From assembly GCF_008065095.1 (NCBI RefSeq), contig NZ_CP042911.1, positions 8,400,001 to 8,432,000 on the forward strand: a stretch of DNA of 32,000 nucleotides, read 5' to 3'. This DNA is from Gemmata obscuriglobus (GTDB taxonomy: Bacteria > Planctomycetota > Planctomycetia > Gemmatales > Gemmataceae). Below are positions 10,781 to 19,430 of the stretch, in pieces (position 1 is the stretch's first letter; every line of letters begins with the position of its first letter). The position numbers and the translations under genes are program-made. The notes beneath the pieces were generated by a model. That model did not search any database. It was not told where the DNA came from and saw nothing but the letters and a program-made list of their open reading frames with translations.

Positions 10781-10943
10781 TCCATTCATGTAGTGGACGG
10801 GTGTAGCGATTGTTCCGGTCGGGCAACCTGGGGTAGATCGAATGCTCGCGACGCCGTCCGCCACCGAACACGAACCCGCCGACAGCACGGACATCCTCTC
10901 GGTGGGCCGTCTGTCCGCTCCATCCGCCTTCGGAGACGACCCC

Positions 10944-11573
10944 ATGTCGGAGCGCGTGCAACTCACGCCCAAGCAGCAGTCGATCTACAACTACATCCGC
11001 AAGCACATCGAGGAAAAGGGGTTCCCGCCCGCGATCCGAGACATCTGCACGGAGTTCGGCATCTCCTCGCCCAACGGCGTGATGTGCCACCTGAAGGCGC
11101 TGCAGACGAAGGGGTACATCAACCGCGTCCAGAAGGGCGAGAACTCGCAAAAGGCGCAAGCCCGCGGGATCACCATCCCGGGAGTTACGTCTGGTGGGTT
11201 CAGCCTGCCGTTCGTCGGCGTGGTTGCCGCGGGCAAGGCCATTGAGTCCGCCGAGGACGATCAGCGGCTCGAAATGCGCGAACTGTTCGGCAGTGAGGAC
11301 CTGTTTGTCGTGAAGGTGCGCGGCACGTCCATGATCGAAGGGCACATTGCGGACGGCGACTTTGTGGTGATCCGCAAGGCCGAGACGTGTGAAAACGGCG
11401 AGAAAGTTGTCGCAATGATTGAGAAGGCGATGACGCTCAAGAAATACTACAAGAAGAAGAATGAGATTCAGTTGCACCCGATGAACAGCACGATGGAGCC
11501 GATCATCGTGGACCCTTCCCGTGAGGACATCCGTATCCTCGGCATACTGGCCGGCGTCATCCGTAAGTGCTGA
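10944..11573 (+). CDS. lexA: LexA repressor (SOS regulator, S24 self-cleaving peptidase)
   Basis: The ATG at 10944 follows GGAGA (10932-10936). The N-terminal winged-helix region is LTPKQQSIYNYIRKHIEEKGFPPAIRDICTEFGISSPNGVMCHLKALQTKGYI. The cleavage region is VVAAGKAIE. The catalytic Ser is in RGTSMIEG, and the Lys region is VVAMIEKAMTLKKY. Confidence 0.95.
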   Translation: MSERVQLTPKQQSIYNYIRKHIEEKGFPPAIRDICTEFGISSPNGVMCHLKALQTKGYINRVQKGENSQKAQARGITIPGVTSGGFSLPFVGVVAAGKAIESAEDDQRLEMRELFGSEDLFVVKVRGTSMIEGHIADGDFVVIRKAETCENGEKVVAMIEKAMTLKKYYKKKNEIQLHPMNSTMEPIIVDPSREDIRILGILAGVIRKC

Positions 11574-11599
11574 TCGAGAAAATAGATGCGGCAAAGAAT

Positions 11600-11641
11600 C
11601 ACGAGCCGGATCGGCGCTTACTGGCGCCGATCCGGCTCGTG
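11600..11641 (+). terminator. Perfect 18-bp stem hairpin downstream of lexA
   Basis: cacgagccggatcggcgc (11600-11617) is the exact reverse complement of 11624-11641, with a 6-nt loop. It lies 27 nt after the lexA stop. No U-tract follows. Confidence 0.4.
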
Positions 11642-11780
11642 GCAATTGACCGAACCGACAGGACGCAAACGGTTCCGCGCACCAACTTCAGGAACCGAAC
11701 GCTTCCCGTCGATCGTTGTGCGCCACCTGTCGTGAAGGCAACTCGGTTCGCCGGTGAAAGGTGGGCGAGGGAACGGGAAC

Positions 11781-11809
11781 TTGACACGCCGTCAAGAAGC
11801 TCGACACTT
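11781..11809 (+). promoter_or_regulatory. Candidate sigma-70-type promoter of the ATPase gene, possibly giving a leaderless mRNA
   Basis: A consensus TTGACA lies at 11781-11786, then a 16-nt spacer, then GACACT at 11803-11808 (3 of 6 matches to TATAAT). The ATG at 11815 is about 7 nt downstream and has no SD. TTGAC-acgcc-GTCAA (11781-11795) forms a small palindrome over the -35. Confidence 0.3.
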
Positions 11810-11814
11810 TCCCC

Positions 11815-14800
11815 ATGCACCGCGAGATCAGTACTGTCGATGACCCGTTCCGGTCCGAGACACCGCTCGGGTTGTACCTGCTCACCGCTGTTATCGGCGG
11901 GCTGGTCGCGGCGGACCTGTGGCCCGTCGTCGCCGCGTGGCTCAAGGGCCAGGGCATTGAGACGTACACCTGGGCGCGCGAACTGTATGGGTTTCGTTAC
12001 GCGCTCGTAGCGGCCGTCATCGGCGGCGGGCGGGTGTTGTACACGTCCCTGGAATCGCTGTTCGAGGGTCGTATCGGCTCCGACCTCGCCCTCGCGATCG
12101 CGTGCCTCGCAGCCATCATCCTGAAAGAACCGGTCGTCGCCGCGGAGGTGGTCTTCATCGGGCTGGTTGGCGAGTGCCTGGAAGCGTACACGTTCTCGCG
12201 CACACAAAACGCGCTCGGCAAACTTGCGGAACTGTTCCCGACCCGGTGCTGGGTGCTGCGCGACGGCGCCGAGGTCCGCACCTTCACCGCCGACGTGATC
12301 GTCGGCGACAAGGTCGTAGTAAAGCCCGGCGGCCGGGTGCCCGTTGACGGCGTGGTAACCGACGGGCGCTCGGCGGTCGACGCGAGTGCGATCACCGGCG
12401 AGAGTCTGCCGGTCGATAAGGGGGTCGGCGACGCGGTTCTGGCCGGGAGCATCGTGCAGCAGGGCGCGCTCACCGTCGAGGCGCAGAAGGTCGCGAAGCA
12501 GACCGTCGCCGGACAGGTGATCGAACTGACCGGCCAGGCGCTCAAAGACAAGGCCCCGCTCGAACGGTACGCCGACCGGCTGGCGCGGTACTTTTTGCCG
12601 CTCGTGCTCGTGCTGGCGCTGGTCACGTTCCTGGGCAACGTCGGCTACCAAATGACCGGTACGCCGGCCCCGGGGCTTCCGAAGCCGACCCTGCGCGCCG
12701 CCGCGCAAGTGGCCGCGTACCCGGCGCTCGCGGTGCTGGTGGTCGCGTGCCCGTGCGCGCTGATCCTCGCGACCCCGGCCGCGGTGATCGCCGCGCTGGG
12801 GCGGCTGGCGGGCACCGGGGTGCTCATCAAGGGCGGGTCGGCGCTGGAGCGGCTCGCCGGCGTGACCGCGTTCGCGTTCGACAAGACCGGCACCCTCACC
12901 GAGGGGCGGCTCGAACTGGGCGACGTGATCCCCCTTTCGGGCGCCACGCCGGACCAACTTCTTGCGGTTGCGGCCGCGGCCGAGCAGCGGAGCGAGCACC
13001 CACTCGCGCGGCTCCTCGTGCGCGAGGCCAGTTCGCGTGGCCTGCCCCTCGCGACCGTTGACGAGTTCCGCGCGCACCCAGGCGCGGGCGTTACCGCCCG
13101 CGCCGAAGGCGGGGCGCTCGTCGTGGGGACGCGCCGGCTGATGGAGGAGCGGGGCGTAACGCTGCCGCCGGAGGCCGTGGCGGCGCTGGAACGGCTCGAC
13201 GCGGCCGGGCAGACATCGCTCGTCGTGGCCCGTGCGGGCGTCGTGCTGGGCGTACTCGGTGCGCGCGACACGCTCCGCCCCGAAGCCGCACACGTGCTCG
13301 CCGAACTGCGCGCGCTGGGCATCCGGCCCGTCGCACTGCTCACCGGCGACCGGGCCGCGGTGGCGCGATCGGTTGCGGAGCAACTGCCCGTGACCGAAGT
13401 CCACGCCGAAATGCTTCCGGCCCAAAAGGCGGAATGGGTAGCGGCGCAGAAGCCGGCCTCCGCTGCACCCTCCTCTCCTGGGGGGGAAACTGACAGTAAC
13501 AGTAACCCCGCCCGAGAGGAGCAACGTCCAACAACCGATCCGGTTGCAGGGCCGGTCGCAACGCGAGCCCCCGAGTCCCTCCCTGATTTCCCAGGGGAAG
13601 GGGTTGGAGGGAGAGGTTCTTCCGTTGCGTTCGTCGGCGACGGGATCAACGACGCACCCGCGCTCGCGCGGGCCGGCGTCGGGATCGCCATCGGCAGCGG
13701 AACGGACGTCGCCGCCGAGGCCGGCGACGTCGTGATGATGGGCGCCCCGCTCGCGCCGCTGCCGCTTCTCGTGAAGCTGTCGCGCGAAACGGTCCGCATC
13801 ATCCGGCAGAACATTCTGATCTTCGCGTTCGGGGTGAACCTCGTCGGCATCTTGCTGACGGGGCTGTTGTGGCCGCTGTTCGCGACCTCGCCGGAGTGGT
13901 ACGAGTCGGCCCCGCTGGTGGGCGTCATCTACCACCAGTTCGGGTCGCTGGCGGTCCTGCTGAACTCGATGCGGTTGCTCGCGTTCGACCGGGCGGACAA
14001 CCGCACCCTCTCGCGGGCCAAAGGGGCGGCGAAAGCGGTCGAGGGGTGGCTGAACCGGTTTTCGATTGACGACACCCTGCACGCCGTCGCGCACCGGTGG
14101 AAGCTGATCCGCGCCGGCGCGTTCGGGGCGTTCTTCGTCGCCCTCGCGCTCACCTCGTTCGCGCAGGTCGAAACCGACGAGGTGGGCGTGGTGCGACAGT
14201 TCGGGGCGATAACCGCGGACCTGCCGCCAGGGCTGCACGTGCGCTGGCCGTGGCCGATCGAGACCGTGACCCGCGTGCGGCCCGACGAGGTGCGCACGGT
14301 CGAACTCGGGTTTCGTGTGTTGGCGGAGCCGCAGAGCAAGAAAGCGTCTACGAGCAACACCTGGACCAGCGGGCACGGCGACGGCGTCGGGCGGCTCACC
14401 GACGAGGCCGTGATGGTCACCGGCGACGGCGACCTGGTCGAGATCCTCGCCACTGTTCGGTACCGCGCCAGCGCCCCGCGCCAGTACCTGTTCGCGGCCC
14501 GCGACCCGGACGCGCTGATGCGCTCGGCCGCCGAAGCGGTCCTGCGCGAGCTGGTCGCCAGCCGGCGGTTTCTGGAGTTGCTCACGCTCAAGCGGGCGGA
14601 ACTGGAGCGCGACGCCACGAACCGCCTGACCCAGCGCCTCGCCGAGGTCGCTCCGGAGGGGCTCGGGGTCACCCTCGAGGGGTTCACGCTGCACGACCTG
14701 CACCCGCCGCCGGAAGTGGTGAACTCGTACCACTCCGTCGCGAAGGCGATTCAGGAGCGCGACCGCACCATCAACGAGGCGCTCGCCGGCGCGCTGCGCA

Positions 14801-15231
14801 CCCGGCGCCGCTCGGAAGAAGAGGCGGACCGCATCCTGAAGCGCACCGAAGCCGAGCGGCACACGAAGGTTGAAAGCGCGAAGGCGGACCGGGACGCGTT
14901 CCTCGCGTGGCACACGGCCCGCGCGCAGTTGACCGACGCCGAGGAGGCCGCCCTCGCCGCCGAGCGGGCGAACCGAATCGCGGCGAAGCAAGATCCGGCC
15001 GCGGTGGACAAGGACCTCGCAGAGCGCCGGACCCGCACGCTGGCGGAGCGCCGCGCGCTGCTCGAAACGCGGCTGACGTACCAGACCGTCGTGGACGTGC
15101 TGAAGTCGCGCGACAAGGTCATCATCGACGCGCCCGAGGCGCCGGGCCGCCGGCACCTGTTCCTGCTCGACCCGGAACTGCTCAAGGTCCCCCAACTGGT
15201 CGCGCCGCGAACGATCGAGAAAGACCCGTGA
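11815..15231 (+). CDS. P1B-type heavy-metal-translocating P-type ATPase fused C-terminally to an HflK-like SPFH/band-7 module (1138 aa)
   Basis: This is one uninterrupted ORF. ATPase motifs are ITGESLPV, VACPCALILATP, FDKTGTLT and GDGINDAPALA. After the last ATPase TMs comes an extra TM (LIRAGAFGAFFVALALTSFAQV). An HflK-collinear region follows (EVGVVRQFG...PPGLHVRWPWPIETV, VMVTGDGDLVEILATVRYR, GFTLHDLHPPPEVVNSYHSVAKAIQER, a charged coiled coil, then SRDKVIID). Confidence 0.9.
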   Translation: MHREISTVDDPFRSETPLGLYLLTAVIGGLVAADLWPVVAAWLKGQGIETYTWARELYGFRYALVAAVIGGGRVLYTSLESLFEGRIGSDLALAIACLAAIILKEPVVAAEVVFIGLVGECLEAYTFSRTQNALGKLAELFPTRCWVLRDGAEVRTFTADVIVGDKVVVKPGGRVPVDGVVTDGRSAVDASAITGESLPVDKGVGDAVLAGSIVQQGALTVEAQKVAKQTVAGQVIELTGQALKDKAPLERYADRLARYFLPLVLVLALVTFLGNVGYQMTGTPAPGLPKPTLRAAAQVAAYPALAVLVVACPCALILATPAAVIAALGRLAGTGVLIKGGSALERLAGVTAFAFDKTGTLTEGRLELGDVIPLSGATPDQLLAVAAAAEQRSEHPLARLLVREASSRGLPLATVDEFRAHPGAGVTARAEGGALVVGTRRLMEERGVTLPPEAVAALERLDAAGQTSLVVARAGVVLGVLGARDTLRPEAAHVLAELRALGIRPVALLTGDRAAVARSVAEQLPVTEVHAEMLPAQKAEWVAAQKPASAAPSSPGGETDSNSNPAREEQRPTTDPVAGPVATRAPESLPDFPGEGVGGRGSSVAFVGDGINDAPALARAGVGIAIGSGTDVAAEAGDVVMMGAPLAPLPLLVKLSRETVRIIRQNILIFAFGVNLVGILLTGLLWPLFATSPEWYESAPLVGVIYHQFGSLAVLLNSMRLLAFDRADNRTLSRAKGAAKAVEGWLNRFSIDDTLHAVAHRWKLIRAGAFGAFFVALALTSFAQVETDEVGVVRQFGAITADLPPGLHVRWPWPIETVTRVRPDEVRTVELGFRVLAEPQSKKASTSNTWTSGHGDGVGRLTDEAVMVTGDGDLVEILATVRYRASAPRQYLFAARDPDALMRSAAEAVLRELVASRRFLELLTLKRAELERDATNRLTQRLAEVAPEGLGVTLEGFTLHDLHPPPEVVNSYHSVAKAIQERDRTINEALAGALRTRRRSEEEADRILKRTEAERHTKVESAKADRDAFLAWHTARAQLTDAEEAALAAERANRIAAKQDPAAVDKDLAERRTRTLAERRALLETRLTYQTVVDVLKSRDKVIIDAPEAPGRRHLFLLDPELLKVPQLVAPRTIEKDP

Positions 15232-15299
15232 TGCCGAACGCCGGGCCGCTCGGCGCCGCGGTCGTTCCAAACTTGCCGGTGGGCGCAACCTCCAACCGA

Positions 15300-16436
15300 T
15301 CAGAACCGAATCCGTAACGTGCCCGCGAGAAATGCTCCCGGTTCGACATCGACCCGGTCGTGCATATCGGACCCCTGGTTCCGCCCCTCACCGAAGCGAC
15401 GACCGAACGCGTAACCGGCGTTGAAGTCGAGCGTGGCGCGCTCCAACACGCCCCAGCGAAGGCCCGCCAGCACCCGCTGTTCGGCCGCGAAGAACCGGTC
15501 CTTCTTGTCCGCCCGGTCGGCCAGGAAGTACGACTCGGTGACGTTCTCGTACCCCGCGTAGAAGTTCAGCCGCTCGGTCGCGCGGTAGGTGACCCGGGCG
15601 TTGATGTTCGTCAGCGGCACGTAGGTCACGTTGAGGGTCCAGTCTTCCGCGGGCCGCCACGTGAGCGAGAGCGGCAGCCCGATGTTCATCTGGAACTGCT
15701 CCGAGGGGTTCCAGGAGTACGAGATCAGCGGGAGCGGGAAGTTCAGGTTCCCGGCCGAGGAGTACGCGAGGCCGAACATCCAGGCGTCCCGGCTGTTACG
15801 GGCCGGCACCCGCAGCAGCGCGGTGAGCGAGACGTTCAGCTCGTCGAAACTGTTGAACGGCTTGTCACTCGGCGAGCCGAAGTCGGCCCTTAGAATGCCG
15901 ACCCAGCCGTTCTCGAACACGTGGTTGTAGCTCGCCCCCACGTTCACGTTCCACAGGTCGCGCGGGAAGGGCCGGCGGGTGTCCGGCAACAGGGCGTCGG
16001 TGTCGAAATGCGTCTCGCGGACGCCCAGCGTGAGGGACAGGCTGTCCGCGCCGTCCTTCCACACGGGTGCGCTGACAGACAGGTTTTGTCGGACCGCCCC
16101 GAAGTCGGTGTTCTGTCCCTTCACCGGGCGCGACGGGTACCAGCTCGCCGCGTACCAGGCGCCGCTGGCCCGCCCCGCTCCACCGAACCCACCCGCTCCC
16201 CCGAACCCGTCGCCGCTCATCATGTCCGGGCGGGGCGGGCGCCGGGGCGGAACGTCAGCGGCGGGCGGGGCTTCCGGGCTCGGGTCGGTCGTGGGATCGG
16301 GCGCCGGTTGGGGAGCGCCGAGCCGCGTGCGCGCGTCCGCGCGAGTCGCGGGCGGCTCGTCTTGGGCCAGAGCCGTTCCGAAGCTCAGGCCGATCGCAAC
16401 CGGTACCACCAGAAGTAACACCCGCCGGATCGACAT
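15300..16436 (-). CDS. Putative outer-membrane beta-barrel protein (378 aa)
   Basis: The signal peptide is MSIRRVLLLVVPVAIGLSFGTALAQ, with GGAGG 9 nt upstream of the ATG at 16434-16436. A Pro-rich linker follows, then alternating amphipathic strands. The C-terminus ends ...GTLRIRF (terminal Phe). Confidence 0.7.
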   Translation of the reverse strand: MSIRRVLLLVVPVAIGLSFGTALAQDEPPATRADARTRLGAPQPAPDPTTDPSPEAPPAADVPPRRPPRPDMMSGDGFGGAGGFGGAGRASGAWYAASWYPSRPVKGQNTDFGAVRQNLSVSAPVWKDGADSLSLTLGVRETHFDTDALLPDTRRPFPRDLWNVNVGASYNHVFENGWVGILRADFGSPSDKPFNSFDELNVSLTALLRVPARNSRDAWMFGLAYSSAGNLNFPLPLISYSWNPSEQFQMNIGLPLSLTWRPAEDWTLNVTYVPLTNINARVTYRATERLNFYAGYENVTESYFLADRADKKDRFFAAEQRVLAGLRWGVLERATLDFNAGYAFGRRFGEGRNQGSDMHDRVDVEPGAFLAGTLRIRF

Positions 16437-16684: not shown

Positions 16685-17332
16685 GTGGGCAATCTGACGG
16701 CGGAGATGAAATTCGGTTACGCGGGCAGCGGCTCGGTTCAAACCGACCAGGCGATTCGGGACGCGCGGGCCGGCGACCGGGAGGCCCTCGGCGGACTGTT
16801 CGACCGGTACGTCAACTATCTCACGCTCCTCGCCCGGGTGCAGATCGGGCGCCGGCTTCAGGGCAAGTTGGACCCGGCCGACGCGGTCCAGGAGGCGTTC
16901 CTTCAGGCGCACCGCCACTTCTCGAACTTCCGCGGCTCGACTGAGGCGGAACTCGCCGCGTGGCTCCGCCGCATCCTCGCGTGCGTCTTGTCCAACACCG
17001 TCCAGCACTATTTGGGCACCCAGGCGCGCGACCCGCGACTGGAACAGGTGATCGCTGCCGACGTGGACCGGTCCTCCGCCGCGCTGGTCGGGCGCCTCGC
17101 CGCCCCGGGGCCGAGCCCGAGCGAGGCGGCCTGCCGGCACGAGCGGGCGGTGCTGGTCGCCGACGCCCTGGCGCGGCTCCCAGATGACTACCGGGAGGTG
17201 GTGCTCCTGCGGTTCGCGGAAGGCCTCGCGTTCGCGGAGGTGGCCGCCCGCATGGGTCGGTCGGTGGACAGCGTCGAAAAGCTCTGGGTCCGCGGGGTCG
17301 TTCGGCTCCGGCAGTTAATTGGGGGGCCGTGA
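16685..17332 (+). CDS. RNA polymerase ECF-type sigma-70 factor, kinase-associated (215 aa)
   Basis: Region 2 is DPADAVQEAFLQAHRHFSNFRG. Region 4 is LARLPDDYREVVLLRFAEGLAFAEVAARMGRSVDSVEKLWVRGVVRLRQL. The stop overlaps the start of the kinase gene (GTGATG at 17329-17334). The start is either the GTG at 16685 or the ATG at 16706. Confidence 0.85.
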   Translation: MGNLTAEMKFGYAGSGSVQTDQAIRDARAGDREALGGLFDRYVNYLTLLARVQIGRRLQGKLDPADAVQEAFLQAHRHFSNFRGSTEAELAAWLRRILACVLSNTVQHYLGTQARDPRLEQVIAADVDRSSAALVGRLAAPGPSPSEAACRHERAVLVADALARLPDDYREVVLLRFAEGLAFAEVAARMGRSVDSVEKLWVRGVVRLRQLIGGP

Positions 17333-18002: not shown

Positions 18003-19430
18003 GTGGCCCGGATCGGGGGGCTCGTCGCTCGCGCCCTGGACCACGCGCACCAGAACGGGGTCGTCCACCGCGACATCAAACCGGCGAACTTGTTACTCGG
18101 TCGGGACGGCCACATCTGGGTGACCGACTTCGGGCTCGCACAGTTCACCGACGCGGCGACCGTCACCGGAACCGGAACGGCCATCGGGACATTGCGGTAC
18201 ATGAGCCCGGAGCAAGCTGAAGGCGACCGCCGCCGGCTCGACCACCGGGCCGACGTGTACTCCCTCGCCGCGACCCTGTACGAGCTGTCCACCGGCCGCC
18301 CCGCGTTCCCGGCCGAGACGCCCGCCGCGCTGCTGTTGCAGATCGCGCGGGGCGCCCCGCCCGCCCCCCGGTCCGTCGACCCGACGGTGCCCCGCGATCT
18401 GGAAGCGGTGCTGCTCAAGGGGCTGGAGACGGACCCGCGCGACCGGTACGCAACGGCCGCCGAGTTCGCCGACGACCTGGACCGGTTCCTGAACCGGCGC
18501 CCGATCGCGGCCCGGCGCCCGTGCGCCGGGGACCGGGCGCGGAAATGGGCGGGCCGGCACCCGGCGGTCGTCGCCGGCGCGGCCATCGCCCTCGTGCTCT
18601 TGACCGCGGGGTCGGGCGCCATCGCCGCACTCAACCAGCGCGCGTACCGGGCCGAGCGGGACCGGGCGGACGAAGCCGAGCGGCGGTTCTACCAGTCGAA
18701 ACAGCTCGGCGACCTGATGATCCAGATCAGCGAGGAAGAGGGGCGGTCGAACGTCTCGTTCCACGGACCCCGCCGGCGCCTCCTGCTGGCCGCCCTGGAG
18801 AACTACCGGCAACTGAACGAAGCCGGGCACAACGACCCCCAGGTCCGTGCCGAACTGGACCGCGCGACGGCCCGGGTCGAGGAGCTTTTGGCTGAGGAAA
18901 AGGCGGCCCGGGAGTCGTGGCGGGTGGGGCTGCTGTGGTTTCAACCGGTGCGGGCGGAGCTGCGGTTGTCCCCGGATCAAGAGGAACAGGTTCGGCAGTC
19001 GTTCCGGGTCCGCGGCCTGGAGCCGGGAACCGCAACCGCCGGCCTGGGAACGATACGCGATGACCTCAACTTGCGGGGCAAGATCGCCCGCCTGCTGAGC
19101 GACCCGACCGCCCGGAACGAACTGCTCCGCCCGCTGACCGGGCCGCAGCGGAAGCGGCTCGGCGAACTGTTCCTCCGGTGCCTCGGGCCGATGGCCTTTG
19201 GCGATCCGGAGATCGTCGAAGCGCTGGGCCTCACCCCCCACCAGCGGCAGCAGATCCGGTTGCTCCAGCCGCCCGTGGCGTTGCGGCTCGGCCCGCCGTT
19301 CGCCGTCCTCCTGGACGACCGCCGGCCGGGCGGCATCGACCCGGCCTCGGACCCGGTGACGTTACTCACTTCGGAACAGCGCGCCATCTGGAAGGCGCTG
19401 ATCGGTCGCCCGTTTGAGATGCCCTGGTGA
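18003..19430 (+). CDS. Ser/Thr protein kinase, C-terminal fragment (kinase C-lobe, TM, extracytoplasmic LTxxQ-repeat domain)
   Basis: HRDIKPANLLL, VTDFGLA and GTLRYMSPEQ are present, along with the TM HPAVVAGAAIALVLLTAGSGAIAAL. This frame is open from 17595. From about 17850 it reads LDVLIEAYQ..., continuing the kinase fold. 18003 is only the first in-frame start codon. Confidence 0.85.
   Translation: MARIGGLVARALDHAHQNGVVHRDIKPANLLLGRDGHIWVTDFGLAQFTDAATVTGTGTAIGTLRYMSPEQAEGDRRRLDHRADVYSLAATLYELSTGRPAFPAETPAALLLQIARGAPPAPRSVDPTVPRDLEAVLLKGLETDPRDRYATAAEFADDLDRFLNRRPIAARRPCAGDRARKWAGRHPAVVAGAAIALVLLTAGSGAIAALNQRAYRAERDRADEAERRFYQSKQLGDLMIQISEEEGRSNVSFHGPRRRLLLAALENYRQLNEAGHNDPQVRAELDRATARVEELLAEEKAARESWRVGLLWFQPVRAELRLSPDQEEQVRQSFRVRGLEPGTATAGLGTIRDDLNLRGKIARLLSDPTARNELLRPLTGPQRKRLGELFLRCLGPMAFGDPEIVEALGLTPHQRQQIRLLQPPVALRLGPPFAVLLDDRRPGGIDPASDPVTLLTSEQRAIWKALIGRPFEMPW

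What the first reader, a model, noticed from the sequence alone, without database searches (positions are those of the whole stretch)
11815..15231. Heavy-metal P-type ATPase fused in one ORF to a complete HflK-like SPFH module
The first ~720 residues form a full P1B ATPase with TGES, CPC in TM4 of the core, DKTGT and GDGINDAP. It has no N-terminal CxxC metal-binding domain, and its last TM carries an unusual HQFGS motif, so I cannot infer metal specificity. There is no stop codon after the ATPase. The chain continues through a ~45-aa linker and one extra TM into ~400 residues collinear with HflK. These comprise the SPFH core, the PPPEV..A..ER motif, a long charged coiled coil and a KVIID-type tail. 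The extra TM would put the SPFH domain on the periplasmic face, as in HflK. No hflC, nfeD or ftsH gene is adjacent. SPFH proteins assemble into large membrane cages or microdomains. A transporter covalently tied to one would be an unusual way to confine metal export. I know of C-terminal hemerythrin fusions in P1B-5 ATPases, but I am not aware of a characterised SPFH fusion.
Basis: partly seen in the sequence, partly recalled or inferred. Interest (0 to 1): 0.7.

Follow-up and report, generated by a model that had tools for sequence, protein, structure and literature searches.

The report
Metal pump fused to HflK-type scaffold
This gene really does encode one protein joining a heavy-metal export pump to a cage-forming HflK-like scaffold subunit; the design is shared by many soil and water bacteria, has not been studied, and suggests that SPFH cages can corral metal exporters.

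Summary
ORF 11815-15231 (+) is an intact 1138-aa protein made of an 8-TM P1B ATPase without an HMA domain, a ~40-aa cytoplasmic linker, a ninth TM helix and a complete HflK-type SPFH subunit. It is not an artefact: all 120 best database hits carry the same fusion. The fusion recurs in Planctomycetota, Acidobacteriota, Armatimonadota, Verrucomicrobiota/Lentisphaeria and Sumerlaeota.

New context: in most lineages, including the Gemmataceae member Tuwongella, the fusion gene heads a cassette of fusion, hflC-type gene, hflK-type gene and usually a small anchored protein. In this window, as in Fimbriiglobus and Frigoriglobus, the fusion stands alone. The same SPFH type is also fused to CDF metal exporters. 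The exporter-fused modules share a signature (WxxxH insert, HPP) that the free partners lack. The insert lies next to the site where E. coli HflK contacts FtsH.

Most likely mechanism (inferred): the module polymerises, with HflC/HflK-type partners where they exist, into a periplasmic HflK/C-like ring that tethers divalent-metal pumps in a fenced membrane patch. Metal specificity is unresolved; a Zn/Co/Cd-class metal is favoured. I found no paper on it. I rate it a new variant of known kinds, interest about 0.7.

The parts
11815..15231 (+). Whole fusion gene (1138 aa plus stop)
   Evidence: GC3 0.86-0.96 along the ORF
11815..11826 (+). N-terminal MHRE. M1, H2 and R3 are invariant and E4 nearly invariant in 97 Gemmatales-type members. 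There is no HMA domain.
11857..12189 (+). MA, MB (with the GGG kink), M1 and M2, ending in GECLE. G119 and E123 are invariant across the whole fused clade.
12394..12405 (+). TGES (A-domain)
12748..12756 (+). CPC in M4. C312 and C314 are invariant in 33 diverse fused representatives.
12880..12894 (+). DKTGT phosphorylation motif
13450..13623 (+). Variable low-complexity insert in the P-domain (residues 546-603). It is absent from many relatives, has pLDDT below 50 and has atypical GC3 of 0.53.
13636..13659 (+). GDGINDAP hinge motif
13798..13890 (+). M5, with invariant N675 in the context V-N. It has neither the Tyr of the Cu(I) 'YN' motif nor the Lys of ZntA-type pumps.
13933..13947 (+). M6 motif H707-Q-F-G-S. 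H707 is invariant across the fused clade, and the family pattern is H-(Q/E)-x-(G/S/A)-(S/A)-x5-N.
13981..14097 (+). Cytoplasmic linker (residues 723-761). The stretch 721-768 holds 9 K/R against 5 D/E. The model predicts two helices. W745, D752, L755, H756 and H760 are conserved within Gemmatales only.
14098..14175 (+). Ninth TM helix (residues 762-787), equivalent to the HflK membrane anchor
14176..14709 (+). SPFH/Band_7 domain (residues 788-965)
14317..14391 (+). Fusion-specific insert (residues 835-859) with invariant W850 and H854. Free HflC-type and HflK-type partners lack it. It ends at the residues aligned to E. coli HflK R141/E142, which contact FtsH.
14701..14718 (+). HPPPEV junction. 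H963 and P964 are invariant in exporter-fused modules. The partners have N (HflC-type) or S/A/T (HflK-type) at the H963 position.
14710..15108 (+). Coiled-coil region: CC1 helix 966-1037, an extra helix 1041-1056 from a Gemmatales-specific insert, and CC2 1061-1098
15115..15129 (+). KVIID C-terminal strand motif. K1101 and D1105 are conserved in the fused modules and in the HflK-type partners.
11600..11641 (.). Perfect 18-bp-stem hairpin between lexA (10842-11573) and the fusion gene. It probably separates the two transcription units.

Best explanation
The gene encodes a single polypeptide. A P1B-type transition-metal exporter (8 TM helices, no HMA domain, metal site CPC / N / H-Q-x-G-S) continues from its cytoplasmic C-terminus through a ~40-residue linker and a ninth TM helix. 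It then becomes a complete periplasmic HflK-type SPFH subunit: SPFH domain, CC1, CC2 and a C-terminal strand.

It belongs to a large, multi-phylum family that has not been characterised. In that family the fusion gene ancestrally heads a cassette with a free HflC-type gene, a free HflK-type gene and a small anchored protein.

Proposed mechanism (inferred, not shown): the SPFH module polymerises through its coiled coils into an HflK/C-like ring or cage on the periplasmic face. Where partners exist, HflC-type subunits alternate with HflK-type positions, and those positions are filled either by the free HflK-type protein or by the pump-fused one. Metal pumps are thereby tethered in a fenced membrane microdomain, a hard-wired efflux platform. 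The family-specific Trp/His insert sits at the position where HflK contacts its client, so it would face the pump's exit side.

The substrate is most likely a divalent metal of the Zn/Co/Cd class.

In this Gemmata-type genome the partner genes are not adjacent. The protein would either assemble with partners encoded elsewhere or homo-oligomerise.
For: Shown:
- The ORF is intact and has uniform coding statistics.
- The domain architecture is as described.
- All 120 best homologues are fused.
- There are 32 full-length fused representatives at 50% clustering, down to 32% identity in the SPFH part.
- In 69 of 79 species-level loci the SPFH module is in frame with a DKTGT/CPC ATPase.
- The topology is 8 + 1 TM helices with a positively charged linker.
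- CDF fusions independently use 6 + 1 TM helices.
- For the module, the best PDB sequence hit and the top five fold hits are E. coli HflK, aligned over 330-350 columns including the coiled coils.
- The cassette is conserved. Of 60 loci with enough downstream DNA, 41 have two SPFH paralogues plus the small gene, and all 60 have at least one paralogue.
- The partners pass the curated HflC model (226.6 bits against 134.4) and HflK model (231.3 against 159.4).
- The cassette is retained in Tuwongella and in a 58%-identical relative.
- In the L019 cassette, the coiled-coil span from junction to tail is about 98-99 residues in all three proteins.
- W850, H854 and H963 are invariant only in exporter-fused modules, including 7 CDF fusions.
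- The insert abuts the residues aligned to HflK R141/E142, which contact FtsH.

Evidence for a divalent metal:
- TIGR01512 (Cd-family) passes its cutoff and TIGR01511 (Cu) fails.
- The Cu(I) residues Tyr (TM7) and Met (TM8) are absent.
- The M6 motif H-(Q/E) resembles the IB-4 motif HEGxT.
- Some members have His-rich N-termini.
- The CDF fusions have HxxxD in both TM2 and TM5.
Against: - Oligomerisation is inferred only by homology. I could run monomer models only.
- No partner gene lies in this window. Two searches did not show a named Gemmata HflC, so it is unknown what the protein assembles with in this organism.
- The Gemmatales module has a 35-40-residue insert between CC1 and CC2 that its HflK-type partner lacks. 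This could affect co-assembly.
- The Trp/His insert is modelled with low confidence (pLDDT below 50), and I had no coordinates to test for a metal site.
- By my own rough geometric estimate, a ring in which every subunit carried a pump would be sterically crowded.
- The metal is unproven. The best-scoring PDB sequence hits are Cu ATPases by a small margin, and Cu(I) pumps also have CPC.
- A single clade of all exporter-fused SPFH modules has only 16/50 bootstrap support.
Confidence: 0.55

Rival explanations
1. FtsH-coupled control. Fusing the pump to an HflK paralogue inserts it into the FtsH-HflK/C protease complex. Pump abundance is then set by, or protected from, FtsH proteolysis, and the point is not to organise export.
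For: The partner genes pass the curated HflC and HflK equivalog models. FtsH binds the cage only through HflK, and the P-type ATPase MgtA is cited as a known FtsH substrate. The module's closest solved structures are HflK chains from FtsH-HflK/C complexes.
Against: No FtsH-like ORF lies within about 6 kb of the SPFH match in 79 loci or anywhere in the window. In the fused paralogue, the residues aligned to the FtsH contacts R141/E142 are G859/R860, and a family-specific insert precedes them. This argues that the client surface has been remodelled. The fused module itself scores below the HflK cutoff. This rival is not mutually exclusive with the main explanation.
Confidence: 0.2
2. Periplasmic metal chamber. 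The pumps sit inside the fence and discharge into the lumen of the cage. The conserved Trp/His residues line the lumen and bind the metal, making a sequestration or metallation nanocompartment.
For: Two unrelated exporter classes carry the same SPFH type, with the same WxxxH and HPP signature. The signature is absent from the free partners and lies at the cage-interior client site of HflK. A small anchored protein is co-conserved and could be cargo.
Against: No metal-binding site has been demonstrated. Only two invariant His and one invariant Trp are involved, and the insert has low model confidence. A second group of CDF fusions (L076-L078) lacks the signature entirely. To my knowledge, known HflK/C cages have openings and are not ion-tight.
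Confidence: 0.15
3. A co-expression device only. The polypeptide is cleaved in the linker after insertion, yielding a separate pump and HflK-like protein, and the fusion merely guarantees 1:1 synthesis.
For: The linker has no invariant residues across the broad family. It is modelled at moderate confidence, pLDDT about 70.
Against: The fusion has been kept across at least five phyla and down to 32% identity in the SPFH part without splitting. Within Gemmatales the linker has conserved residues (W745, D752, H756, H760). I saw no recognisable protease site.
Confidence: 0.08
4. Assembly or frameshift artefact joining two genes.
For: None found.
Against: The same junction occurs in 120 of 120 top homologues, including complete genomes. 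Coding statistics are uniform across the junction, and the other two frames have stops.
Confidence: 0.01

Closest known systems
E. coli HflK/HflC-FtsH complex (PDB 7vhp/7vhq, 7wi3, 9cz2, 9paw)
   Same: It has one N-terminal TM anchor, a periplasmic SPFH domain, CC1, CC2 and a C-terminal strand. HflK is the best sequence match and the best structural match. In relatives, the adjacent genes pass the HflC and HflK models.
   Different: The anchor helix is preceded by a whole metal pump in place of HflK's cytoplasmic tail. The module scores below the HflK equivalog cutoff. It carries a WxxxH insert at the FtsH-contact site and His in place of Arg before PPxEV. The cassette has two HflK-type genes and one HflC-type gene. 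No ftsH is nearby.
P1B-4 ATPases (sCoaT, CzcP, CtpD; PDB 7qbz) and P1B-2 ZntA (4umv)
   Same: It has 8 TM helices including a GG-kinked MB, lacks a classical HMA domain as many P1B-4 pumps do, has a conserved M2 Glu and has an invariant M6 His followed by Q/E. It passes TIGR01512.
   Different: M4 is CPC and not SPC/APC. M6 is H-Q-x-G-S and not HEGxT. It lacks ZntA's M5 Lys and M6 Asp. It also has a C-terminal TM plus SPFH extension.
Mycobacterial PacL/Ctp 'metal efflux platforms' or effluxosomes (PMC9374683, PMC13043812)
   Same: The concept is shared: P1B ATPases are clustered and stabilised in membrane assemblies by a dedicated scaffold encoded next to the pump gene.
   Different: PacL is a small DUF1490 protein with cytoplasmic Glu/Ala repeats and is not an SPFH protein. 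The association is non-covalent. The platforms are independent of the flotillin homologue Rv1488. Here the scaffold is an SPFH subunit, it is periplasmic and it is covalently attached.
P1B-5 ATPases with a C-terminal hemerythrin domain
   Same: They are another P1B subgroup with a functional domain fused at the C-terminus.
   Different: Hemerythrin is a soluble cytoplasmic sensing domain. Here an extra TM helix carries an oligomerising scaffold to the other side of the membrane.
Other SPFH cages with membrane clients (QmcA-YbbJ 8z5g; stomatin-aquaporin-1 9zd2; erlin, prohibitin, flotillin)
   Same: They share the subunit fold and the expected ring or dome assembly. The title of entry 9zd2 shows a transport protein bound to an SPFH cage.
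   Different: In those systems the client is not covalently attached, and they are more distant matches than HflK.

Membership tests
P1B-type (heavy-metal) P-type ATPase | DKTGT, TGES, GDGxNDxP, the SEHP (HP) motif and a CPx motif in M4 | tested here: met
   All are present at residues 356-360, 194-197, 608-615, 393-396 and 312-314. TIGR01525 scores 516 bits against a cutoff of 346.
P1B-type (heavy-metal) P-type ATPase | Eight TM helices (MA, GG-kinked MB, M1-M6) and the P1B fold | tested here: met
   Supported by hydropathy and AF2 helices. Foldseek top hits are CopB, CopA, ZntA and sCoaT, with target-normalised TM-scores of 0.64-0.74 for the top five.
P1B-1 (Cu+; CopA type) | CPC, plus YN in TM7, plus M..SS in TM8 (PMC3922081), and an N-terminal CxxC HMA domain | tested here: not met
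   CPC and the Asn are present. The Tyr is Val (V674), the Met is His (H707), and there is no HMA domain. TIGR01511 scores 371 bits, below its cutoff of 397.
P1B-2 (Zn2+/Cd2+/Pb2+; ZntA type) | CPC, plus a conserved Lys in TM7 and Asp in TM8 (PMC3922081) | tested here: not met
   M5 has no Lys and M6 has no Asp. The ZntA-specific models are far below cutoff (317 against 1240). The broader Cd-family model TIGR01512 does pass (385 against 313.5).
P1B-4 (Co2+/Zn2+/Cd2+; CoaT/CzcP type) | SPC/APC in TM6 and HEGxT in TM8 (PMC3922081, PMC8880997) | tested here: not met
   M4 is CPC. M6 is H-Q-F-G-S, so the His is kept, the Glu becomes Gln (it is Glu in L026) and the Thr becomes Ser. This is a resemblance and not membership. 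I aligned H707 to sCoaT H657 only by motif register recalled from memory, because the direct PDB alignment failed.
SPFH / Band 7 superfamily | Band_7 domain above the Pfam gathering threshold | tested here: met
   PF01145 scores 70.9 bits against a cutoff of 23.6.
HflK (FtsH protease modulator) | A score above the curated equivalog cutoff | tested here: not met
   TIGR01933 scores 121.7 bits against a cutoff of 159.4, and PRK10930 scores 63.8 against 660.
HflK (FtsH protease modulator) | Architecture: an N-in TM anchor, a periplasmic SPFH domain, CC1, CC2 and a C-terminal strand; closer to HflK than to HflC | tested here: met
   It is collinear with HflK from the TM helix onward. DSSP on the model shows the expected elements. 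The top five fold hits are HflK chains. It falls on the HflK side of a split separating the HflC-type clade in 50 of 50 bootstraps.
HflK (FtsH protease modulator) | A paired hflC gene and hetero-oligomerisation with HflC | tested here: inconclusive
   There is no hflC in the window. An hflC-type gene is adjacent in most relatives and lies elsewhere in the genome in F. ruber. Hetero-oligomerisation itself cannot be tested here.
HflK (FtsH protease modulator) | Binding of FtsH through R141, E142 and R185 (PMC13220708) | tested here: inconclusive
   The aligned residues are G859, R860 and R903, and a 25-residue family-specific insert precedes them. Binding cannot be tested here.
Exporter-fused HflK-type SPFH (the uncharacterised family defined here) | A metal exporter with an even number of TM helices, then one extra TM, then an SPFH module carrying the WxxxH insert and HPPxEV | tested here: met
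   The window protein has W850, H854 and H963-P964. These are invariant in 33 diverse ATPase fusions and are also present in 7 CDF fusions.

The most novel reading that the evidence does not exclude
The HflK/C-type cage with covalently tethered P1B or CDF exporters is a periplasmic metal-handling nanocompartment. The pumps sit inside the fence and discharge a divalent metal into the cage lumen. The exporter-specific Trp/His residues and a co-conserved small anchored protein capture the metal there, either for sequestration or to metallate specific clients. If so, SPFH cages would act as reaction chambers as well as scaffolds or protease regulators.
Probability: 0.15. Interest if true: 0.9.

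Novelty: new variant of a known kind. Interest (0 to 1): 0.7.

Why it matters
How SPFH cages (HflK/C, prohibitin, stomatin, flotillin, erlin) select membrane-protein clients, and what they do to them, is still debated. Here evolution has attached a defined client covalently to a cage subunit. It has done so for two unrelated metal-exporter classes and across several phyla, and it has usually kept matching HflC-type and HflK-type partner genes next door.

That gives a natural, stoichiometrically defined system for structural and genetic tests of client confinement by an SPFH assembly.

For metal homeostasis it points to a hard-wired version of the efflux-platform principle recently described in mycobacteria. 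It also defines a P1B subgroup (CPC / N / H-Q-x-G-S, no HMA domain) whose substrate is unknown.

Tried and rejected
- A PDB sequence search with only M5-M6, meant to align H707 with sCoaT H657, returned nothing. The assignment rests on motif register and my memory of published signatures.
I used a narrower alignment of non-Gemmata modules instead, so the 79 loci under-sample Gemmatales.
- The fold search with the full-length model returned only P-type ATPases. I needed a second model of the C-terminal module to see the SPFH matches.
- Testing whether H808, H854, H960, H963 and H973 cluster in 3D was impossible. Model coordinates are not exposed, and the insert has low confidence.
- Two homology searches with HflC-type partners did not settle whether Gemmata has a free partner. 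The lists stop at about 58-65% identity, and most entries carry no name.
- The first NJ bootstrap run timed out. The rerun gave only weak support for one clade of exporter-fused modules.
- Literature searches for a P-type ATPase or CDF fused to SPFH/Band 7/HflK found nothing relevant. The Smith et al. 2014 P1B review is not held.
- The fourth cassette gene could not be assigned. It has only sub-threshold hits to NTF2-like DUFs.
- The artefact explanation is rejected.


Full report
**Observation**

The ORF at 11815-15231 (+) is intact: 1138 codons from an ATG to a stop.

- Pfam finds E1-E2_ATPase, Hydrolase and Band_7, and no HMA domain.
- NCBIfam places the first ~720 residues in the P1B heavy-metal ATPases (TIGR01525, 516 bits against a cutoff of 346).
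- NCBIfam matches the C-terminal part to hflK (TIGR01933) at 121.7 bits, below its cutoff of 159.4.
- Third-position GC is 0.86-0.96 in the ATPase, linker, extra TM, SPFH, coiled-coil and tail segments, and the other two frames across the junction contain stops. The junction therefore reads as one gene.
- A 1229-aa antisense ORF over the same region did not pass the codon-position GC filter that the plus-strand frame passed. I read it as a shadow ORF of the kind common in high-GC DNA.

**Not an artefact**

The 120 best hits in the 5.8-billion-protein database are all 979-1163 aa and carry the same three Pfam domains. They include proteins from Gemmata sp. JC717 (93% identity), Frigoriglobus tundricola, Fimbriiglobus ruber and Urbifossiella, and many independent metagenomes. 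They carry only generic names.

**The ATPase half**

Hydropathy and the AlphaFold model (mean pLDDT 80.5) give MA, a GG-kinked MB and M1-M6. The nearest solved structures are CopB, CopA, ZntA and sCoaT.

Invariant residues across 33 diverse fused representatives (35-60% identity) include G119 and E123 (M2), C312 and C314 (M4), N675 (M5), H707 (M6) and the catalytic motifs.

Published signatures (PMC3922081) are:
- IB-1: CPC, plus YN, plus M..SS.
- IB-2: CPC, plus K, plus D.
- IB-4: SPC/APC, plus HEGxT.

This protein has CPC, then V-N, then H-Q-x-G-S, so it meets none of them.

The M6 pattern across the family is H-(Q/E)-x-(G/S/A)-(S/A)-x5-N. By register, the His falls where CopA has Met and where IB-4 pumps have the His of HEGxT. 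That register is my hand alignment plus recalled signatures, because a direct PDB alignment failed. In sCoaT, that His packs between the SPC residues and an M2 Glu assists release (PMC8880997). Both positions are conserved here.

**Which metal**

The metal is unproven. I favour a divalent metal of the Zn/Co/Cd class for these reasons:
- The Cd-family model TIGR01512 passes its cutoff and the Cu model fails.
- The Cu(I) Tyr and Met are missing.
- There is no HMA domain.
- Some members have His-rich N-termini.
- The same SPFH type is fused to CDF exporters with HxxxD in TM2 and TM5. To my knowledge that pattern is typical of Zn/Co CDFs.

Against this, Cu ATPases are marginally the best PDB sequence hits.

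**Linker, ninth helix and topology**

Residues 723-761 form two predicted helices. The stretch 721-768 holds 9 K/R against 5 D/E, and residues 762-787 form a hydrophobic helix.

An exporter with eight TM helices ends in the cytoplasm, so one more helix puts the SPFH module in the periplasm, as in HflK. The CDF fusions follow the same logic with 6 + 1 helices, which independently supports this orientation.

The linker has conserved residues within Gemmatales (W745, D752, L755, H756, H760) but none across the broad family.

**The SPFH half**

It is collinear with E. coli HflK from the TM helix onward.

The model shows an SPFH domain (782-963), a 72-residue CC1 helix (966-1037), a short extra helix (1041-1056), CC2 (1061-1098) and a tail carrying KVIID.

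Modelled alone, its five best PDB fold matches are all HflK chains (E from 4e-16 to 1e-11, 330-350 aligned columns). Stomatin, HflC, erlin, prohibitin, QmcA and flotillin cage subunits follow.

**Distribution**

An exhaustive search with the C-terminal 418 residues found 32 full-length fused representatives at 50% clustering, down to 32% identity. Most of the shorter hits are fragments of fusions. Named examples include Telmatocola, Zavarzinella and a Candidatus Sumerlaeota MAG.

A scan of one genome per species returned 79 loci. In 69 of them the SPFH match is in the same ORF as DKTGT, nearly all with CPC as well.

The record titles cover:
- Acidobacteriota (Blastocatellia, Bryobacterales, Terriglobia, Aminicenantes);
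- Armatimonadota, including Zipacnadia and Thermosaccharophagus, and an Abditibacteriales MAG whose contig ends before the ATPase;
- Verrucomicrobiia and Lentisphaeria;
- Planctomycetia and Phycisphaerae.

**A conserved cassette**

Clustering the flanking ORFs showed that the fusion gene is normally followed on the same strand by two ~300-340-aa Band_7 genes and a ~160-180-aa gene.

- Of 60 loci with at least 3 kb of downstream sequence, 41 have both paralogues plus the small gene, and all 60 have at least one paralogue.
- In L019 the first partner passes the curated HflC model (226.6 bits against 134.4) and the second passes the HflK model (231.3 against 159.4).
- The small gene encodes an N-terminally anchored protein. 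It has only sub-threshold hits to NTF2-like DUFs.
- No FtsH-like ORF lies in these loci.

Within Gemmatales the arrangement varies:
- The full cassette is retained in a 58%-identical relative (L083).
- Tuwongella immobilis keeps the fusion and both Band_7 genes but not the small gene (L085).
- Fimbriiglobus ruber, Frigoriglobus tundricola and this window have the fusion alone.
- F. ruber keeps an HflC-type gene on another contig.

The solo state is therefore derived. I could not establish whether this organism has partners elsewhere in its genome.

**A second exporter class**

Three loci (Actinomycetota, Desulfobacula and Deltaproteobacteria MAGs) and seven database representatives encode a different fusion: a CDF (Cation_efflux) membrane domain, one extra TM helix and an SPFH module. 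One of the representatives is from Candidatus Tritonobacter, phylum Auribacterota. Pfam matched no CDF cytoplasmic domain in any of them. Two of the three loci are again followed by two Band_7 genes.

**A signature specific to fused modules**

W850 and H854 lie in a ~25-residue insert, and H963 precedes PPxEV. These residues are invariant in the ATPase-fused modules and are present in the seven CDF-fused representatives.

The free partners lack the insert entirely. At the H963 position they have N (HflC-type) or S/A/T (HflK-type). The L076-L078 group of CDF fusions lacks the signature.

In an NJ tree:
- The HflC-type partners form a clade in 50 of 50 bootstraps.
- All fused modules fall on the HflK side.
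- A single clade of all fused modules is recovered but is weakly supported, at 16 of 50.

According to PMC13220708, FtsH contacts the cage only through HflK, via R141, E142 and R185. In the alignment these correspond to G859, R860 and R903. The family-specific insert therefore ends exactly at the HflK client-contact site.

**Mechanism (inferred)**

Every solved close structural relative is a subunit of a ring or dome assembly. In the acidobacterial cassette, the distance from the PPxEV junction to the C-terminal strand is about 98-99 residues in all three paralogues (hand count).

I therefore propose co-assembly into an HflK/C-like alternating ring. HflK-type positions would be filled either by the free protein or by the pump-fused one.

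My rough geometry, from published cage dimensions as I recall them, suggests that a ring with a pump on every subunit would be crowded on the cytoplasmic side. Dilution by free HflK-type subunits would relieve that.

The outcome would be a covalently wired metal-efflux microdomain, with the Trp/His insert facing the tethered pump or its released ion.

In Gemmatales the fused module carries a 35-40-residue insert between CC1 and CC2 that its HflK-type partner lacks. What that means for assembly is unknown.

**Rivals**

- FtsH-coupled turnover of the pump is plausible. MgtA is a known FtsH substrate. The remodelled contact site and the absence of ftsH linkage weaken this idea, and it could coexist with the main model.
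- A metal-loading chamber is the most novel reading that the evidence does not exclude.
- Cleavage in the linker cannot be excluded computationally.
- An assembly artefact is excluded.

**Comparison with what is known, and novelty**

The closest concept is the mycobacterial PacL/Ctp effluxosome (PMC9374683, PMC13043812). There the scaffold is a small non-SPFH protein, it is not covalently attached, and the platforms do not depend on the flotillin homologue.

I found no paper describing a P-type ATPase or a CDF fused to an SPFH protein. Only open-access papers and bioRxiv preprints were searchable, so a subscription-journal report could have been missed. The architecture is also visible in domain databases under generic names.

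I rate it a new variant of known kinds. It is widespread and uncharacterised, and it gives SPFH biology a naturally tethered client to study.

Noticed in passing
L076 5335-6867, L077 5308-6861, L078 1085-2620; proteins P0199, P0213, P0220, P0238, P0250, P0257, P0263: These are CDF (Cation_efflux) membrane domains fused through one extra TM helix to an HflK-type SPFH module. Pfam matched no CDF cytoplasmic domain in them. Seven representatives carry the same WxxxH and HPP signature as the ATPase fusions, and the three loci L076-L078 do not.
   Followed up: yes
e.g. L019 9058-9570, L001 9192-9728, L026 8952-9506: The fourth cassette gene is a ~160-180-aa N-terminally anchored protein with a conserved 'PE.V...DA...GD...YL.CF.G.L' motif. 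It occurs in 61 of 79 loci and lies downstream on the same strand in 59 of them. It has only sub-threshold hits to NTF2-like DUFs. In L083 a different YcxB/bPH-like gene takes its place, and in L078 a 665-aa double PPIase follows the two Band_7 genes.
   Followed up: partly
window 13450-13623: This low-complexity Pro/Ser/Gly-rich insert in the P-domain (residues 546-603) has GC3 of 0.53 and GC2 of 0.71, against about 0.9 and 0.5 in the rest of the gene. It varies in length and sequence among close relatives, is absent from many, and is modelled as disordered.
   Followed up: partly
window 11815-11826: The protein starts with MHRE in Gemmatales-type members. M1, H2 and R3 are invariant and E4 nearly invariant in 97 sequences. 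Many distant members start with MH or carry His-rich N-termini, for example the long HPHPH tract in L026. This may be a minimal N-terminal metal site replacing the HMA domain.
   Followed up: partly
window 11599-15288 (-): A 1229-aa antisense ORF spans the whole gene. Unlike the plus-strand frame, it did not pass the codon-position GC filter, so I read it as a shadow ORF of the kind common in high-GC DNA.
   Followed up: partly
window 11600-11641: A perfect 18-bp-stem, 6-nt-loop hairpin lies between lexA (10842-11573) and the fusion gene. The T-rich tail is on the minus-strand side.
   Followed up: partly
window 16685-17332 and 18003-19430: An ECF sigma factor gene is followed on the same strand by a Ser/Thr protein kinase gene, just beyond the convergent DUF6268 gene (15300-16436). 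Frigoriglobus has a 1253-aa ECF-sigma-domain protein directly downstream of its fusion gene (L082 11743-15504). I did not test for a regulatory link.
   Followed up: no
L047 (ORF open for 1671 codons upstream of the stop): In one acidobacterial chromosome the reading frame stays open about 600 codons upstream of the expected start. This is probably a non-coding run-on in high-GC DNA and not a longer protein.
   Followed up: no
L023, L027, L054, L069, L070, L072: In several MAGs the fusion ORF is interrupted or shortened. These are probably frameshift errors or pseudogenes. I did not examine them.
   Followed up: no
window residues 279-303 and 686-700 (nt 12649-12723 and 13870-13914): The predicted periplasmic M3-M4 and M5-M6 loops look to me longer than usual for a P1B pump and contain conserved residues (P303, W686, P687, P700). 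They are candidate contact points for the SPFH module.
   Followed up: no
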